Below, in pieces: positions 1,472-18,775 of a stretch of 64,000 bases of DNA; the stretch's first letter is position 1, and every line of letters starts with the position of its first letter. The stretch covers positions 59,324-123,323 of the forward strand of contig CAWCUN010000019.1 in assembly GCA_963798665.1 (NCBI GenBank), read 5' to 3'. The notes below the pieces were generated by a model, which worked only from the letters and a program-made list of their open reading frames with translations, was not told the origin of the DNA and ran no database searches. The DNA is from an uncultured Chitinophagaceae bacterium (GTDB lineage Bacteria; Bacteroidota; Bacteroidia; Chitinophagales; Chitinophagaceae). Both the position numbers and the translations under genes were made by a program.

Positions 1472-2149
1472 TTATATCTCCTGGTCGAGCAGCTTGTTTT
1501 TTACAGCAAACATGATAAGTCCGGCAGTACTTTTAGCGCCCGTTTTTGTTTTTAGTTTGTCCCTTATTGCTTCAATTGTTCGAGGGCTTAGTTCAACTGC
1601 TTCGGCAATTTCACGCGTGCTTTTTTCCTCACACATAAGCCTTAATACTGTTATTTCTTTGTCGGAAAGAACGGCATCTTCCTGTTGCAACTTTAATGAA
1701 GATGGTACCTTCTGCCTCAGGTTATTTAGAAGAGCCTTATTAGTTAAAGAGTTAAAATAATATTCCTGCTGGTAACAGGTTATAATAGCCTCATAAATTA
1801 TTTCAGAATCTGACGTTTTGGTAAGATAGCTATTAGCGCCAAGCTCCATTAATTTAGTTATCATACTTTGGTCGTCAACCATTGTAAGCATGATGATCTT
1901 TATCTGCGGGTAAAGTCTTTTTAATTCGGGAAGAGTAGCAATACCATCCATTATGGGCATTTGGATATCAAGCAAAATAACATCCGGCTGTATTCCTTTT
2001 AACAAATTCAACAGATGCTGCCCATTGTCAGCTTCAGCTATTACTTTAATATCCTTTTTGGATGAAAGCGCTGTTTTAACTCCTGCCCGGTAAAGCACGT
2101 GGTCATCTGCAATTATCACATTTACTACGCCGCCGTTTTCTGTTTTCAT
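1472..2149 (-). CDS. NarL/LuxR-family DNA-binding response regulator (orphan, RR1)
   Basis: REC domain (IADDH, LLDIQMPIMDG, LTM, YLTK) plus LuxR HTH (LSDKEITVL...LSPRTIEAIRDKL). No kinase adjacent. Confidence 0.92.
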   Translation of the reverse strand: MKTENGGVVNVIIADDHVLYRAGVKTALSSKKDIKVIAEADNGQHLLNLLKGIQPDVILLDIQMPIMDGIATLPELKRLYPQIKIIMLTMVDDQSMITKLMELGANSYLTKTSDSEIIYEAIITCYQQEYYFNSLTNKALLNNLRQKVPSSLKLQQEDAVLSDKEITVLRLMCEEKSTREIAEAVELSPRTIEAIRDKLKTKTGAKSTAGLIMFAVKNKLLDQEI

Positions 2150-2242
2150 TGGTTTTTGTACAAAATTTTATTTATAACGCATTTTACAAATGTCTGTTGT
2201 TTGAATGGTAAATTAAACCGGACTACTACGAAATTATAAATA

Positions 2243-2256
2243 TAGTAATTCTACGA
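2243..2256. promoter_or_regulatory. Putative operator (TAGTAATTCTACGA) resembling the palindromes at 15511 and 15870
   Basis: AGTAA-N3-TAC core, about 95 bp upstream of the RR1 start codon. Confidence 0.45.
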
Positions 2257-2423
2257 GTAATTAAGGTATAATAACGAACAATATCCTTTATAAATTGCAA
2301 TGATGATACAACTATTTTCTATGAAGTTAACTATCGTTTAGGTCTGTTTAAATACCATGATAAAGAGATGATTAACAAACTTCTATATCGTCAAATAGCT
2401 GCCTGTTTCGATTGCTGTATTGA

Positions 2424-14717: not shown

Positions 14718-15386
14718 TTATTCGATCATCTTATTTCTCATGCCATACATTATGAGGCCGCCTATTGTTTTAGCTCCCACCTTATTCTTCATATTTTGAC
14801 GTATAGTTTCAATTGTTCGCGGACTCAGGAAGATGATTTTGGAGATTTCCTCCGTTGTTTTGTCTTCACCAAGTAGCTGCAATATTCTTAATTCCTTTTC
14901 GCTAAATGTGATGGGTATATTGTTGCCGTAATGATGACGCACATTTTTCTTTTGCATCAACTTGCCCATTACAGCATTATTAACCAACTGATTAAAATAA
15001 AAATCATCATTCATACATGTGCGAATGGCCTCATAGATTTCCTCCGGATCAGTAGTTTTTGTAAGATAGGCATTTGCTCCCATCTCCATCATTTTGCTAA
15101 TCATCTGTTGATCATCATACATCGTGAGAACGATTATTTTTACGTCCTCATATTCCTTGCGAAGCATTGAAATAGCATTTATCCCATCTATTTCAGGCAT
15201 CCTTATATCCATTAATAATACGTCCGGCTTTTTTATGTTGATCTTGTGCATAAGATCTTTACCATCCTCGGCCTCCCATATCATTTTTAGATTCTCTTTG
15301 GTTGAGAGAGCCATTTTGATCCCGTCCCTGAAAATTTTGTGATCGTCGGCTATTGCAATCTTTATCAGTGCAGTGGTTACAGACAT
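14718..15386 (-). CDS. NarL/LuxR-family response regulator (RR2), divergent from the signalling operon
   Basis: IADDH, LLMDIRMPEIDG, YLTK, HTH FSEKELRIL...LSPRTIETIRQNM. Confidence 0.92.
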   Translation of the reverse strand: MSVTTALIKIAIADDHKIFRDGIKMALSTKENLKMIWEAEDGKDLMHKINIKKPDVLLMDIRMPEIDGINAISMLRKEYEDVKIIVLTMYDDQQMISKMMEMGANAYLTKTTDPEEIYEAIRTCMNDDFYFNQLVNNAVMGKLMQKKNVRHHYGNNIPITFSEKELRILQLLGEDKTTEEISKIIFLSPRTIETIRQNMKNKVGAKTIGGLIMYGMRNKMIE

Positions 15387-15496
15387 GGATTTATTTACTT
15401 ATAGTAGTTGCGGTAAAAATATAAAACAATAACGAACAAAGTACCAATGTATTTCAAAAAACGTCTATTATTTTTATCTATATCCCCGGTTTTCGC

Positions 15497-15535
15497 GAGT
15501 AAAACTACAATAGTAAATTTACTATTACAAATGTA
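15497..15535 (-). promoter_or_regulatory. RR2 promoter: -7 box TACATTTG followed by the perfect 18-bp palindrome AATAGTAAATTTACTATT and an adjacent degenerate copy
   Basis: Minus strand reads TACATTTG(15535-15528) TAA TAGTAAATTTACTA(15524-15511) TTGTAGTTTTACTC(15510-15497). Confidence 0.7.
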
Positions 15536-15835
15536 ATTTGTGAAGGCTGAATTTTTGCACTTTTACTCAAAAGAGTGTATTAATCACATTGTAAAAAATG
15601 AGCAATTATCCAGCAAAAAGATAATCAAGGTACATTTGCCGGCTTAAGCAAAATTCTAAAAGAGGTGGTGGGAATCTGCTCTCGCCGAAAAATATCAGCT
15701 TTAAGCGCTTTTATGCGAAACTTTCCAATATTTAGTTGTTAGGTCAAGAATCTTAGCTTTCGGGATTGCATTATGAAGTGGCGATTGAAAAAAATCCCTA
15801 TTCGTATTTATACAATTTTTCAGAAAAATTTTTCG

Positions 15836-15884
15836 TACATTTACCATAGTAAATTATCGACAGTCTAGATAGTAATTTTACTAT
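15836..15884 (+). promoter_or_regulatory. Promoter of the small-protein operon: TACATTTA box followed by two operator-like sites
   Basis: TACATTTA(15836-15843) CCA TAGTAAATTATCGA(15847-15860), then ATAGTAATTTTACTAT(15869-15884), a near-perfect palindrome. Confidence 0.6.
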
Positions 15885-16082
15885 TTTTAAAAGTATATTT
15901 ACCTCTTTTTTACTGTTGATTTTACGTATCTACTTATGGCAAAACCCTTACCCATATTGACTTTTACTAAATTTTCAGAATTGAATTTCGTAAAATACCC
16001 TTTGTAAAAAATTTTGTTTTTGAGGAAGTTAGTATCCAAAATTGACTAAAAGCTATTTTAAAACAACTAAAAACTTACAATT

Positions 16083-16454
16083 ATGACACCAAACGCACTC
16101 CCAGAAACCAAGAACCTTGCTGAAGTAGGTGAAGACATCGGACTTGCAGAAGGAATTGAACTAGTAAAAGCTTTTCAGGAAGCTAACCCTGATGCTACTT
16201 CAGGATATTACATAGGCCGTAATATACTTGAGCAAATTATGGCACAACCTGGTTGCGTGGGAATCAATTTCCGCAAATGCCTTACCAACATGAACGAAGA
16301 ACATTTAGTTTATACAGGCGTTGATGCTGATGGAAAAGACATACTGCAATACAGCGTGATTACAAACACAGGTGATATCGAAAAGCAAAATGGCATTGTT
16401 GCCGATAGAATAATGTGGTTTGAAGACTGGAAAAATATTATGGAGATCGATTAA
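16083..16454 (+). CDS. Small soluble hypothetical protein (123 aa) of a Bacteroidota family found upstream of 7-TM/histidine-kinase genes
   Basis: ATG in an A-rich context. Core IGRNILEQIMAQPGCVGINF...LVYTGVDADGKD...IVADR. The family assignment is from my recollection of homologues, not a search. No signal peptide. Confidence 0.8.
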   Translation: MTPNALPETKNLAEVGEDIGLAEGIELVKAFQEANPDATSGYYIGRNILEQIMAQPGCVGINFRKCLTNMNEEHLVYTGVDADGKDILQYSVITNTGDIEKQNGIVADRIMWFEDWKNIMEID

Positions 16455-16563: not shown

Positions 16564-17208
16564 TTGCCCTTGGCGTTTTTTCTTTTGTTTAAAATACATT
16601 CAAAAGAAAAATCGTTAAGGGTAATTTTTTATTATTTGATTTATTGCATTACTAACGATGCATTAGGTTTTTATTTTCAGAAGGTTGTACATTCTGAAAA
16701 CTTCTTTATTCTCTACGCAATTTTTACCGTAGCAGAATTTAGTTTCTTTTGCCTTTTCTATTATTATATTCTGCCGATAGGCTTAATCAAAAGAAGCGTT
16801 TTTTATATTTGGCTGCTTTTTTTCCTCTTTGCAATAATTGATTTTTTCCTGATAAATAATATGGATGCCTTTGATTCAATCACCGTCGGTGTTGAATCGA
16901 TTTTGATCATACTAATGTGTATCTATTATCTTGTCGGACAAATAAGATCATCTAACAGTTTTTTAATTTACTCAACAACAAATTTTTGGATTATAATCAC
17001 CTTCCTCATTTATATGTCAGGAACTTTTTTTCTTTACATAATGGCAGAAAATATGCTAAATGACAAGTCGTTTCAAAAACAATATGTTGTTATAAATGCC
17101 GCATTTAATATTCTAAAAAACATCCTACTTTCTGTTTCCATGCTTATGAAACCTGGCTTGGTTCGAACTCAAGCTATAAGACATAATGATAGAGACGACC
17201 TCTTTTAA
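16564..17208 (+). CDS. Stand-alone seven-transmembrane protein (putative split receptor for the downstream kinase)
   Basis: Seven hydrophobic segments if the in-frame upstream stretch 16516-16563 (PAILNIIKYTNLISLL) is included in TM1. The start codon is uncertain (TTG at 16564, or ATT/ATA upstream). TATATTTG box at 16496-16503. Confidence 0.8.
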   Translation: MPLAFFLLFKIHSKEKSLRVIFYYLIYCITNDALGFYFQKVVHSENFFILYAIFTVAEFSFFCLFYYYILPIGLIKRSVFYIWLLFFLFAIIDFFLINNMDAFDSITVGVESILIILMCIYYLVGQIRSSNSFLIYSTTNFWIIITFLIYMSGTFFLYIMAENMLNDKSFQKQYVVINAAFNILKNILLSVSMLMKPGLVRTQAIRHNDRDDLF

Positions 17209-17225
17209 ACTAAAAAATTAAACTG

Positions 17226-18065
17226 TTGGACATTTATATGTTCTTTTTACAAGCGACTGAAAATACTATGGGCTTTTCTAACGTACTCATATTTGGAACA
17301 ATAGGTATGTTTGTAATGGCTATTACGCTTGTATCAGTAGTGGTGTTTCATCAACGGAGAGTTATAAGATTTAACAAACAACTGCAAAAACTTGAAGAGG
17401 AAAAACAACAAATGTTACTTAAAGCCTCTATAAGTTTCCAGGAAGAGGAACGGCAACGCATTGCTGCAGATTTACATGATGATGCCGGGCCTTTATTAGC
17501 AACTGCAAGACTTTACCTTAATGAAAATTTAATTCACCAGGAACCCGCGGTACAATTGCAATCAATATTTAGCGCCAAGCAAATTATAGATGATAGCATC
17601 CAGCTTATAAGAAATATTTCTCATAGCCTGATGCCACCAACACTAAAAAACTTTGGACTTGAATCTGCTATGAAAGATATGTTTGATAAAATAAATGGTT
17701 CAGGAGTAATTAATGCCAGTGCACGTTTTCACGATAACCGGGAAAGACTCAGTGAAGAACAGGAATTATTAATTTTTAGAATCTTACAGGAATTGGTTAC
17801 CAATATTATTAAACATAGTTACGCAGGATTTATTCATCTTACTCAGAATGTGCAGGGAAATTTTTCATACTTTCGCATACACCATGATGGAAAGGGTATT
17901 TTGCAATCGGAATTTCAAAAGCTCAATTATAATTCAACCGGACTAGGGCTAAAAAATATAGAGAGTCGAATAAAAGTGTTGAAGGGAAGTATTTCATTTG
18001 ATATCGACAGTACTCATACATATTATAAGGTAACAATTGAGGTACCCAGGGAAATCGCTAAATAA
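17226..18065 (+). CDS. HisKA_3-type (NarX/DegS-like) histidine kinase with one N-terminal TM helix and no sensor domain
   Basis: TM VLIFGTIGMFVMAITLVSVVVF; H-box EERQRIAADLHDDAG; N-box QELVTNIIKHS; HDGKG and GLGLKNI G-boxes. Confidence 0.92.
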   Translation: MDIYMFFLQATENTMGFSNVLIFGTIGMFVMAITLVSVVVFHQRRVIRFNKQLQKLEEEKQQMLLKASISFQEEERQRIAADLHDDAGPLLATARLYLNENLIHQEPAVQLQSIFSAKQIIDDSIQLIRNISHSLMPPTLKNFGLESAMKDMFDKINGSGVINASARFHDNRERLSEEQELLIFRILQELVTNIIKHSYAGFIHLTQNVQGNFSYFRIHHDGKGILQSEFQKLNYNSTGLGLKNIESRIKVLKGSISFDIDSTHTYYKVTIEVPREIAK

Positions 18066-18118
18066 ACAAGTTGTTCATTCCGTTTATATCTTTGCGTTTT
18101 TAATTTAACCCATTTAAA

Positions 18119-18775
18119 TTGAGTATGGATACAATTAAGGTTGCCATAGCCGATGATCACAAGATTTTCAGGAAAGGAGTAATTCTTTCTTTACGGCCAT
18201 ACCATAATATTAAATTTGTACTCGAGGCCGAAAACGGCGAAGAACTTATACAAGGCATAGAAGCGGCCCACCCCGATATCATTTTAATGGACCTTAAAAT
18301 GCCCGTGAAAGACGGCATTGAAACTACGAAATATCTCAATAAGCATTATCCGGCCATACGTGTGTTGGTACTTACAATGTATGAAGATGAAAGATTTGTC
18401 GGTCATTTAATGGATAGTGGCGCCAACGGCTATTTATTAAAAAGTACCGACCCCGAAGAAATAAAACAAGGGATTACTGATGTGATGCGAACTGGTTTTT
18501 ATCTCAATAATTTTGTGAACAGGGTGCTTATCAAAAAAAATTATGCCAAGCAAAAATTTAACCCAAACCTTAATAGCGAAGTAATAATAAGCGAGAGGGA
18601 AAAGGAAGTACTTTCATTGGTTTGTATGGAATACACTGCGCAGGAAATTGCACAAAAAATGGATATAAGTGCGAGAACCGTTGAAGCAATTAAAGACCGA
18701 CTGATGGAGCGTTTTGGGGTAAAAAATTCTGTGGGGCTTGTTTTCTTTGCAATGAAAAATTCTTTAATCGATTAA
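18119..18775 (+). CDS. NarL/LuxR-family response regulator (RR3), likely cognate to the upstream kinase
   Basis: IADDH, ILMDLKMPVKDG, YLLK, HTH ISEREKEVL...ISARTVEAIKDRL. Has its own TATCTTTG box at 18087-18094. Confidence 0.92.
   Translation: MSMDTIKVAIADDHKIFRKGVILSLRPYHNIKFVLEAENGEELIQGIEAAHPDIILMDLKMPVKDGIETTKYLNKHYPAIRVLVLTMYEDERFVGHLMDSGANGYLLKSTDPEEIKQGITDVMRTGFYLNNFVNRVLIKKNYAKQKFNPNLNSEVIISEREKEVLSLVCMEYTAQEIAQKMDISARTVEAIKDRLMERFGVKNSVGLVFFAMKNSLID

What the first reader, a model, noticed from the sequence alone, without database searches (positions are those of the whole stretch)
15497..15884. Mirror-image divergent promoters, each with a TAGTAA-palindrome exactly 3 nt after the -7 box
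Seen: the minus strand reads TACATTTG-TAA-TAGTAAATTTACTA (inside the perfect 18-bp palindrome AATAGTAAATTTACTATT, 15509-15526) plus an abutting degenerate copy. The plus strand reads TACATTTA-CCA-TAGTAAATTATCGA, then ATAGTAATTTTACTAT at 15869-15884. Both promoters have the same box, the same 3-nt spacer and paired sites. Established: Bacteroidota sigma-70 promoters use TAnnTTTG at -7, and NarL/LuxR dimers bind inverted repeats. Inference: these are operators over the transcription start of both the regulator and the small-protein operon, giving coordinated feedback, probably repression given the position.
Basis: partly seen in the sequence, partly recalled or inferred. Interest (0 to 1): 0.7.

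Follow-up and report, generated by a model that had tools for sequence, protein, structure and literature searches.

The report
Conserved private operator array of a two-component locus
The palindromes are real, strongly conserved binding sites that almost certainly let a Ginsengibacter signalling locus regulate itself, but the "promoter box exactly 3 nt upstream" is peculiar to this one genome, so this is an ordinary autoregulated two-component system with a newly defined operator.

Summary
The palindromes are far from chance. A matrix scan of the 5.58-Mb genome puts the two sites first and second (28.4 and 23.3 bits; next best 16.8). Across 37 genomes of the genus, 27 of 36 exact TAGTAA-N2-TTACTA copies lie in this one intergenic region.

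In 44 orthologous Ginsengibacter regions the core GTA-N4-TAC is exact:
- in 43 at the main operon-side site (B)
- in 42 at a second site 21-22 bp downstream (C)
- in 28 at a third site 35-38 bp upstream (A)

The array persists in other Chitinophagaceae genera. The regulator-side palindrome is less conserved (26/44).

The "mirror-image promoter" reading fails. TAnnTTTR followed 3 nt later by TAGTA occurs on both strands only in this genome (1/44). The plus-strand "-7 box" is operator site A itself. GTA-nATT-TAC automatically contains TAnnTTTA.

For the regulator gene, the conserved promoter-like element lies about 37 nt before its ATG, which puts the operator roughly 93-107 bp upstream of that start.

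Best reading: a phased operator array for the locus's NarL/LuxR regulators, more likely activating than repressing. No transcription start data could be obtained.

The parts
14718..15386 (-). RR2: NarL/LuxR-type response regulator (222 aa), transcribed divergently from the operon
   Evidence: Pfam Response_reg 2e-28 and GerE 3.5e-10. 86-96% identical across the genus and always divergent from the P0001 gene. Closest solved relatives are LiaR/VraR.
15416..15447 (-). Conserved promoter-like element of RR2: TTG (15447-15445), 21 nt, TATATTTT (15423-15416). Inferred start near 15410.
   Evidence: Block TtCGTTAt..t.tTAtattTttac is conserved in the RR2-upstream alignment. TAnnTTTH boxes cluster at -55..-30 from the RR2 ATG in 44 loci. 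Function is inferred, not shown.
15497..15526 (.). RR2-side operator pair: degenerate GTAAAACTAC (15499-15508) and perfect palindrome AATAGTAAATTTACTATT (15509-15526). Centres are 14 bp apart, 117 and 131 bp before the RR2 ATG.
   Evidence: Scores 23.3 bits, second best in the genome. An exact GTA-N4-TAC lies at -150..-90 from the RR2 ATG in 26/44 genus loci, and a tandem pair in 8. Not conserved in other genera.
15528..15535 (-). It matches the consensus exactly but is not conserved.
   Evidence: Present. Absent at this position in the other 43 loci. About 0.76 exact TAnnTTTG are expected by chance in 700 bp counting both strands (own estimate from base composition).
15835..15844 (.). Operon-side site A, GTACATTTAC.
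   Evidence: Aligns with tAGTA-N4-TACnA in orthologues. An exact GTA-N4-TAC lies 35-38 bp upstream of site B in 28/44 loci.
15847..15860 (.). Half-site A', TAGTAAATTATCGA, 14 bp from site A. Only the GTAAA half is conserved.
   Evidence: consensus at.gtaaa.
15869..15884 (.). Operon-side main operator B, ATAGTAATTTTACTAT, centred 206 bp before the P0001 ATG.
   Evidence: Best site in the genome, 28.4 bits. Exact GTA-N4-TAC core in 43/44 genus loci at a nearly fixed distance from the ATG. Retained at about -198 in 16 loci of other genera.
15893..15902 (.). Site C, GTATATTTAC, 21 bp downstream of B. It also reads as the -7-like TATATTTA.
   Evidence: An exact GTA-N4-TAC lies at +21/+22 from B in 42/44 loci; consensus cGTAyATTTACC.
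15916..15926 (.). Possible fourth, degenerate site D (TGATTTTACG), about 44 bp downstream of B.
   Evidence: Conserved ttTACg block. In other genera an exact site lies 45 bp after B. Weak in this genome.
16083..16454 (+). P0001: 123-aa protein of an unnamed family with a hypervariable C-terminal tail. First gene of the regulated operon.
   Evidence: No Pfam or NCBIfam hit. Orthologues 73-85% identical with tails that diverge after IVAD(R/K). 286 representative clusters in the large library.
16564..18775 (+). Rest of the operon: P0002 multi-pass membrane protein (16564-17208), HisKA_3 kinase with no obvious input domain (17226-18065), and the NarL/LuxR regulator RR3 (18119-18775).
   Evidence: Pfam. 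NCBIfam LiaS-like 4.8e-18. Gene order conserved in all loci with enough flank.
2243..2256 (.). Single GTA-N4-TAC site (TAGTAATTCTACGA) 100 bp before the ATG of the third paralogue RR1 (1472-2149, minus strand).
   Evidence: An exact core lies at -94..-115 in 29/30 genus orthologues of RR1.

Best explanation
The TAGTAAwwTTACTA palindromes (core GTA-N4-TAC) are operators for the NarL/LuxR-type response regulators encoded at this locus: RR2, RR3 and probably RR1. They form a near-private autoregulatory circuit.

Upstream of the P0001-P0002-kinase-RR3 operon they make a phased array. Site B is high-affinity. Site C lies 21-22 bp downstream, site A about 37 bp upstream, and a weak site D about 44 bp downstream. 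In this genome and about half of the genus, a second site or site pair sits about 120-130 bp before the divergent RR2 gene. A single site sits 100 bp before RR1.

Inferred mechanism: phosphorylated regulator dimers bind B first, then fill the weaker phased sites cooperatively. They activate a promoter that lacks a good sigma-A consensus. This gives positive feedback on the small protein, the membrane partner, the kinase and the regulators.

They are not conserved promoters.

Shown here: the sites exist, are unique in the genome, are conserved in sequence, position and spacing, and are linked to the regulator genes.
Inferred: which protein binds, where transcription starts, and the sign of regulation. 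My odds are roughly 55% activation, 30% repression and 15% mixed.
For: - Genome uniqueness. Across 37 genus genomes, 27 of 36 exact copies lie in this about 0.7-kb region (compared with the coordinates).
- Conservation of B, C and A in 43, 42 and 28 of 44 loci, with spacings of 21/22 and 35-38 bp.
- Conservation at about -198 and -153 in other genera, where P0001 is only 28-53% identical.
- The same core upstream of RR1 in 29/30 orthologues and of RR2 in 26/44.
- RR2 and RR3 have receiver plus GerE domains. Their nearest solved relatives are LiaR/VraR, EvgA, DevR and NarL.
- For activation: no canonical TAnnTTTG is conserved anywhere within 420 nt upstream of P0001. The RR1 and RR2 sites lie about 90-107 bp upstream of the conserved promoter-like elements, too far for simple occlusion.
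- Established knowledge (my own recollection): LiaR, VraR, DevR and EvgA positively autoregulate through upstream palindromes.
Against: - There are no binding data and no transcription start data.
- Site C reads TAyATTTA, and TAnnTTTA is enriched upstream of genes in this genome. C could therefore be the real -7 box. Sites B and C would then cover the promoter, which would mean repression.
- The scoring matrix was built partly from this genome's own site B.
- The RR2-side site is missing from about 40% of the genus and from other genera, so feedback on RR2 is not a fixed feature.
- The distance from the array to the P0001 ATG (150-250 nt) is long for Bacteroidota, where median leaders are 24-32 nt (PMC9723704). 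The promoter remains unassigned.
Confidence: 0.72

Rival explanations
1. Two mirror-image sigma-A promoters are used, TACATTTG on the minus strand and TACATTTA on the plus strand. Each start site lies under a TAGTAA site, so the regulator represses both units by blocking RNA polymerase.
For: The minus box matches TAnnTTTG exactly. With the box at -12..-5 (PMC9723704), the starts would fall at about 15523 and about 15848, at the edge of the palindromes. TAnnTTTA is also used in this genome. The 20-nt inverted similarity is unlikely to be pure chance at a fixed spacing.
Against: The geometry is present in 1 of 44 orthologous regions. The plus box aligns with operator site A and reads TATATCTA in the closest relative. 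The minus box is not conserved. The implied leaders of 137 and 235 nt are atypical (PMC9723704). No -33 TTG lies 19-21 nt upstream of either box.
Confidence: 0.1
2. The operators are the same, but they repress. Site C (TATATTTA, 15894-15901) is the operon's -7 box and site B covers the -33 region. Regulator bound to A, B, C and D would coat the promoter and shut it off. A signal would relieve repression.
For: C is the best-conserved -7-like element upstream of P0001. B would be centred near -30. A contiguous array spanning a promoter is typical of repressors (general knowledge).
Against: In C, the G before TA and the C after TTTA are as conserved as the box itself. That fits an operator better than a -7 element. 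No -33 TTG is present. The RR1 and RR2 sites lie far upstream of their promoter-like elements. Relatives of these regulators mostly activate their own operons (recollection).
Confidence: 0.25
3. The palindromes are bound by some other factor, or are structural DNA or RNA elements unrelated to the adjacent regulators.
For: No binding experiment exists. The intergenic region holds further conserved blocks of unknown role (15556-15600, ACCnGTTG, GAAGTTAG).
Against: The sites are essentially unique to this locus and to the paralogue RR1, which points to locally encoded DNA-binding proteins. Size and dyad symmetry fit GerE-type dimers. No Rfam match and no consensus RNA fold were found.
Confidence: 0.06

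Closest known systems
LiaFSR / VraTSR cell-envelope stress systems of Firmicutes (LiaR, VraR)
   Same: RR2 is closest to LiaR/VraR among solved structures (5hev 4.4e-28, 4gvp 3.4e-25). The kinase is HisKA_3 with a LiaS-like hit and no obvious input domain. Membrane partner genes precede the kinase. The regulator's palindromic sites lie upstream of its own operon. Positive autoregulation of LiaR and VraR is my recollection of the literature.
   Different: The membrane partner P0002 and the small protein P0001 match neither LiaF/YvqF nor any other Pfam family. There are two or three paralogous regulators, one of them divergently transcribed. The host phylum has different promoter rules. The half-site sequence differs.
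NarL 7-2-7 heptamer sites, and DevR (DosR) tandem boxes phased about 21 bp apart
   Same: GerE-type dimers on short inverted repeats. Several sites of graded quality lie about two helical turns apart, here 21-22 bp. The weaker sites are presumably filled cooperatively.
   Different: The core here is GTA-N4-TAC (7-0-7, TAGTAAA/TTTACTA), not TACYYMT-N2-AKRRGTA and not the 20-bp Dev box. Site positions relative to the start are unknown.
GacA/UvrY box (TGTAAG-N6-CTTACA) and EvgA box
   Same: GTAA/TTAC-containing inverted repeats are recognised by NarL-family regulators. These can act from far upstream, which one candidate geometry here would require.
   Different: The spacer length and flanks differ. 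Those regulators control small-RNA genes or acid-resistance genes and have larger regulons.
agr-type divergent autoinduction locus of staphylococci
   Same: A divergent intergenic region carries regulator sites that feed back on an operon encoding a small variable protein, a polytopic membrane protein, a kinase and a regulator. The putative signal and receptor parts diverge faster than the kinase and regulator.
   Different: The regulator is NarL/GerE, not LytTR. The sites are palindromes, not direct repeats. P0001 is a 123-aa protein with a conserved core, not a roughly 46-aa AgrD. No AgrB-like peptidase was detected. There is no evidence of a secreted signal.

Membership tests
NarL/LuxR (GerE) family response regulators (the presumed binders) | N-terminal receiver domain plus C-terminal GerE helix-turn-helix | tested here: met
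   RR2: Response_reg 2e-28 and GerE 3.5e-10. RR3: 6.4e-25 and 9.6e-13. NCBIfam hits to MctR, UvrY and NarL types fall below the equivalog cut-offs.
NarL/LuxR-type operator | Short dyad-symmetric site (about 14-20 bp) that is conserved and non-random | tested here: met
   14-18-bp perfect or near-perfect palindromes. They rank first and second in the genome and the core is conserved in 43/44 orthologues.
NarL/LuxR-type operator | Physical binding by the cognate regulator | not testable with these tools
   Needs EMSA, footprinting or DAP-seq.
Bacteroidota sigma-A promoter (as claimed for the two boxes) | TAnnTTTG at -12..-5, usually with TTG about 19-21 nt upstream | tested here: inconclusive
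   The minus box matches exactly and the plus box has A for G. Neither has TTG at the right spacing. The motif and its A variant are enriched 15-60 nt before genes in this genome.
Bacteroidota sigma-A promoter (as claimed for the two boxes) | Conservation of the box at the same place in orthologous regions | tested here: not met
   0 of the 43 other loci have a TAnnTTTR box 3 nt before a TAGTA site at the equivalent position on either strand; the single other plus-strand match (L025, at -224) lies elsewhere. The alignments show other sequence there.
Bacteroidota sigma-A promoter (as claimed for the two boxes) | A mapped transcription start 5-7 nt downstream | not testable with these tools
LiaFSR/VraSR-like autoregulated module | Intramembrane-sensing HisKA_3 kinase plus NarL-type regulator | tested here: met
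   HisKA_3 2.1e-07 and HATPase_c 1e-08. LiaS-like 4.8e-18. One hydrophobic segment was seen by eye in the translation; no predictor was run.
LiaFSR/VraSR-like autoregulated module | LiaF/YvqF-type accessory protein | tested here: not met
   P0001 and P0002 have no Pfam or NCBIfam match.
agr-type peptide quorum sensing | LytTR regulator, direct-repeat sites, AgrB/AgrD pair | tested here: not met
   The regulators are GerE-type. The sites are palindromes. There are no AgrB or AgrD family hits.

The most novel reading that the evidence does not exclude
The operator may have evolved to mimic the Bacteroidota -7 element, since GTAAwTTTAC embeds TAnnTTTA. The regulators would then compete with, or substitute for, sigma-A contacts at a phased array. 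That array would drive a positive-feedback loop on a small protein with a hypervariable tail and a fast-evolving 7-TM partner. This would amount to a peptide-type cell-cell signalling circuit in Chitinophagaceae, with a private regulon.
Probability: 0.12. Interest if true: 0.65.

Novelty: new member of a known kind. Interest (0 to 1): 0.33.

Why it matters
- It defines the operator, GTA-N4-TAC (optimum ATAGTAAwwTTACTAT), and the site architecture of an uncharacterised signalling module. The module is patchily distributed in Chitinophagaceae and has no named parts. That gives a concrete handle for EMSA, DAP-seq and reporter work.
- It shows that the regulon is essentially the locus itself, which is the signature of a self-contained feedback circuit.
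- It is a caution for reading AT-rich Bacteroidota intergenic DNA: operator motifs of this type automatically contain -7-like strings, so a single-genome promoter call can mislead.
- The regulatory principle itself, an autoregulated NarL-family two-component system, is well known.

Tried and rejected
- Rfam scan of 15300-16200: only a meaningless miRNA hit at E 0.55.
- RNAalifold on the 185-nt and 78-nt leaders of 28-54 loci: no consensus structure.
- A hairpin I thought I saw near -130 is not positionally conserved.
- A stem between the T-run near -65 and the A-run near -12 is strong in other genera (11-13 bp, score 24-28 against about 13 for shuffles). In Ginsengibacter it is barely above shuffles. 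I left it as an aside.
- E. coli-type promoter and terminator scan: no more hits than in shuffles.
- Conserved small ORF in the leader: the ATG at 15937 is not conserved.
- A proximal promoter TTG-N20-GAAGTTAG at about -85/-62: considered. The spacing fits, but the box matches only 4 of 6 consensus positions. It also overlaps the 5' arm of the possible stem. Unresolved.
- AlphaFold2 model of P0001 from an 18-sequence alignment: pLDDT 46.7, unusable, so no fold search was run.
- Literature search for a described system: nothing relevant.
- The third genomic copy of the 12-mer shared by the RR1 and RR2 upstream regions is not near a regulator.
- My first motif search used the wrong spacer and found nothing.

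Full report
**What is in the sequence.**
On the left is a NarL/LuxR response regulator, RR2 (14718-15386, minus strand). On the right is a four-gene operon:
- P0001, 123 aa, no known family
- P0002, a multi-pass membrane protein, no known family
- a HisKA_3 kinase
- a second NarL/LuxR regulator, RR3

AATAGTAAATTTACTATT (15509-15526) is a perfect 18-bp palindrome. A degenerate copy, GTAAAACTAC, is centred 14 bp away. ATAGTAATTTTACTAT lies at 15869-15884. The two TACATTTR strings each stand 3 nt before a TAGTAAAT, as an inverted pair.

**Are the palindromes more than chance?**
Yes.
- In the window, TAGTA-N4-TACTA with up to one mismatch gives 7 hits against 1.33 expected.
- In the whole 5.58-Mb assembly there are nine exact TAGTA-N4-TACTA. 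Only these two fit TAGTAA-N2-TTACTA.
- A weight matrix built from orthologous sites ranks them first and second in the genome, at 28.4 and 23.3 bits. The next hit scores 16.8.
- Across 37 genomes of the genus there are 36 exact TAGTAA-N2-TTACTA. By comparing coordinates with the P0001 hits, 27 of them lie in this one intergenic region. The reversed control pattern is commoner genome-wide. The motif is therefore not generally enriched; it is concentrated here.

**Comparative anatomy, operon side.**
Record titles place the organism in Ginsengibacter, family Chitinophagaceae. I collected 44 distinct orthologous intergenic regions. All keep the gene order RR2 <- | -> P0001-P0002-kinase-RR3.

The core GTA-N4-TAC is exact:
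- at the main site B in 43/44 loci, centred about 200-220 nt before the P0001 ATG
- at site C, 21 or 22 bp downstream, in 42/44 (consensus cGTAyATTTACC)
- at site A, 35-38 bp upstream, in 28/44

A weak fourth element, ttTACg, follows about 44 bp after B.

The module also occurs in 16 of 161 genera sampled in the order. In those genera P0001 is only 28-53% identical. An exact site is still found at about -198, with partners 22 and 45 bp downstream. This is a phased array of dimer sites, not a single operator.

**Comparative anatomy, regulator side.**
The RR2-side palindrome is less constant.
- An exact core lies 90-150 nt before the RR2 ATG in 26/44 genus loci.
- I estimate about 5 would be expected from the background rate in these regions.
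- A tandem pair 13-14 bp apart occurs in 8 loci.
- The site is not conserved in other genera.

The best-conserved element before RR2 is TTCGTTAT...TATATTTTTAC, about 30-55 nt before the ATG, with a TTG 21 nt upstream. In this genome TAnnTTTG and TAnnTTTA are enriched 15-60 nt before ORF starts. Median Bacteroidota leaders are 24-32 nt, with the box at -12..-5 (PMC9723704). This is therefore the likeliest RR2 promoter. It puts the operator pair roughly 93 and 107 bp upstream of the start.

A third paralogue, RR1 (1472-2149; 47% identical to RR2), carries one exact core 94-115 nt before its ATG in 29/30 orthologues. In some genomes RR1 lies directly beside RR2.

**The "mirror-image promoter" claim.**
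The pattern TAnnTTT[AG]-N3-TAGTA occurs on both strands only in this genome. One other locus has a plus-strand match, at a different place.

The plus-strand "box" TACATTTA is the inside of site A (G-TACATTTA-C). In the closest relative it reads TATATCTA while GTA and TAC are kept. Any GTA-nATT-TAC site necessarily contains TAnnTTTA, so -7-like strings here are a by-product of the operator.

The minus-strand TACATTTG matches the consensus exactly. It is replaced by unrelated sequence in relatives whose RR2 is 96% identical. By my estimate from base composition, about 0.76 such matches are expected by chance in 700 bp counting both strands.

No canonical TAnnTTTG is conserved anywhere within 420 nt before P0001.

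**Mechanism.**
The sites are unique to the locus and its paralogue, so locally encoded DNA-binding proteins are the natural binders. RR2 and RR3 are GerE-type, and their nearest solved relatives are LiaR/VraR, EvgA, DevR and NarL.

I infer graded, cooperative filling of a phased array by phosphorylated dimers, with feedback on the operon and on the regulator genes. Three points favour activation:
- The operon has no consensus promoter.
- The RR1 and RR2 sites lie far upstream of their promoter-like elements.
- Related regulators (LiaR, VraR, DevR, EvgA) activate their own operons, by my recollection.

Repression remains a live rival. Site C reads TAyATTTA and could be the true -7 box, with B over the -33 region.

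Three placements of the operon promoter remain possible:
- within or next to the array, giving a 130-175-nt leader
- near the conserved ACCnGTTG and GAAGTTAG blocks at -88/-62

**Verdict.**
- The operator interpretation is supported by strong comparative evidence.
- The promoter geometry, and the repression inferred from it, are not supported.
- The thing is a new, well-defined operator array of a familiar regulatory kind.

Noticed in passing
window 1472-2281: The third NarL paralogue RR1 (47% identical to RR2) has a conserved GTA-N4-TAC 94-115 nt before its ATG in 29/30 genus orthologues. In several genomes RR1 lies directly beside RR2, so it belongs to the same circuit.
   Followed up: yes
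window 2270-2281 and 15428-15439: The identical 12-mer AATAACGAACAA (TTGTTCGTTATT on the gene strand) lies upstream of both RR1 and RR2. There are only 3 copies in the 5.58-Mb genome. It is conserved in orthologues of both genes but sits on opposite sides of the operator. It may be a second shared cis-element.
   Followed up: partly
window 16083-16454 (P0001): The core is highly conserved up to IVAD(R/K). It is followed by a 10-25-residue tail that differs in nearly every species. The family has 286 representative clusters, including tandem-duplicated forms of 220-270 aa, and no Pfam model. The AlphaFold2 model was unusable (pLDDT 46.7).
   Followed up: partly
window 16564-18775: Evolutionary rates within the operon are uneven. 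The kinase (80-96%) and RR3 (86-96%) are nearly fixed across the genus. P0002 (51-74%) and P0001 (73-85%) diverge fast, and across genera P0002 falls to 23-35%. This is the pattern expected if P0001 and P0002 carry the specificity.
   Followed up: partly
L089-L099, about -60 to -8 from the P0001-homologue ATG; window about 16014-16075: In other Chitinophagaceae genera an 11-13-bp inverted repeat, TTTTTAGAGGTT...AACCTCTAAAAA, ends about 10 nt before the start codon. In Ginsengibacter only the T-run/A-run and AGTT/AACT parts remain. It may be a stem that sequesters the translation start. No consensus fold was found across all loci.
   Followed up: partly
window 15556-15600: A conserved block, TTGCACTTTTAC...GTATTAATCACAT, lies upstream of the RR2-side operator. 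In relatives it reads GTAATTAATTAC, a GTA-N6-TAC palindrome. Its role is unknown.
   Followed up: no
window 15995-16030: ACCnGTTG (about -88) and GAAGTTAG (about -62) before P0001 are conserved across genera at fixed distances from the ATG. The spacing resembles a -33/-7 pair, but the second element is not a sigma-A box.
   Followed up: partly
window 15630-15640: GTACATTTGCC on the plus strand contains another exact TAnnTTTG. It lies in the unconserved middle of the intergenic region, which illustrates how easily the box arises by chance here.
   Followed up: no
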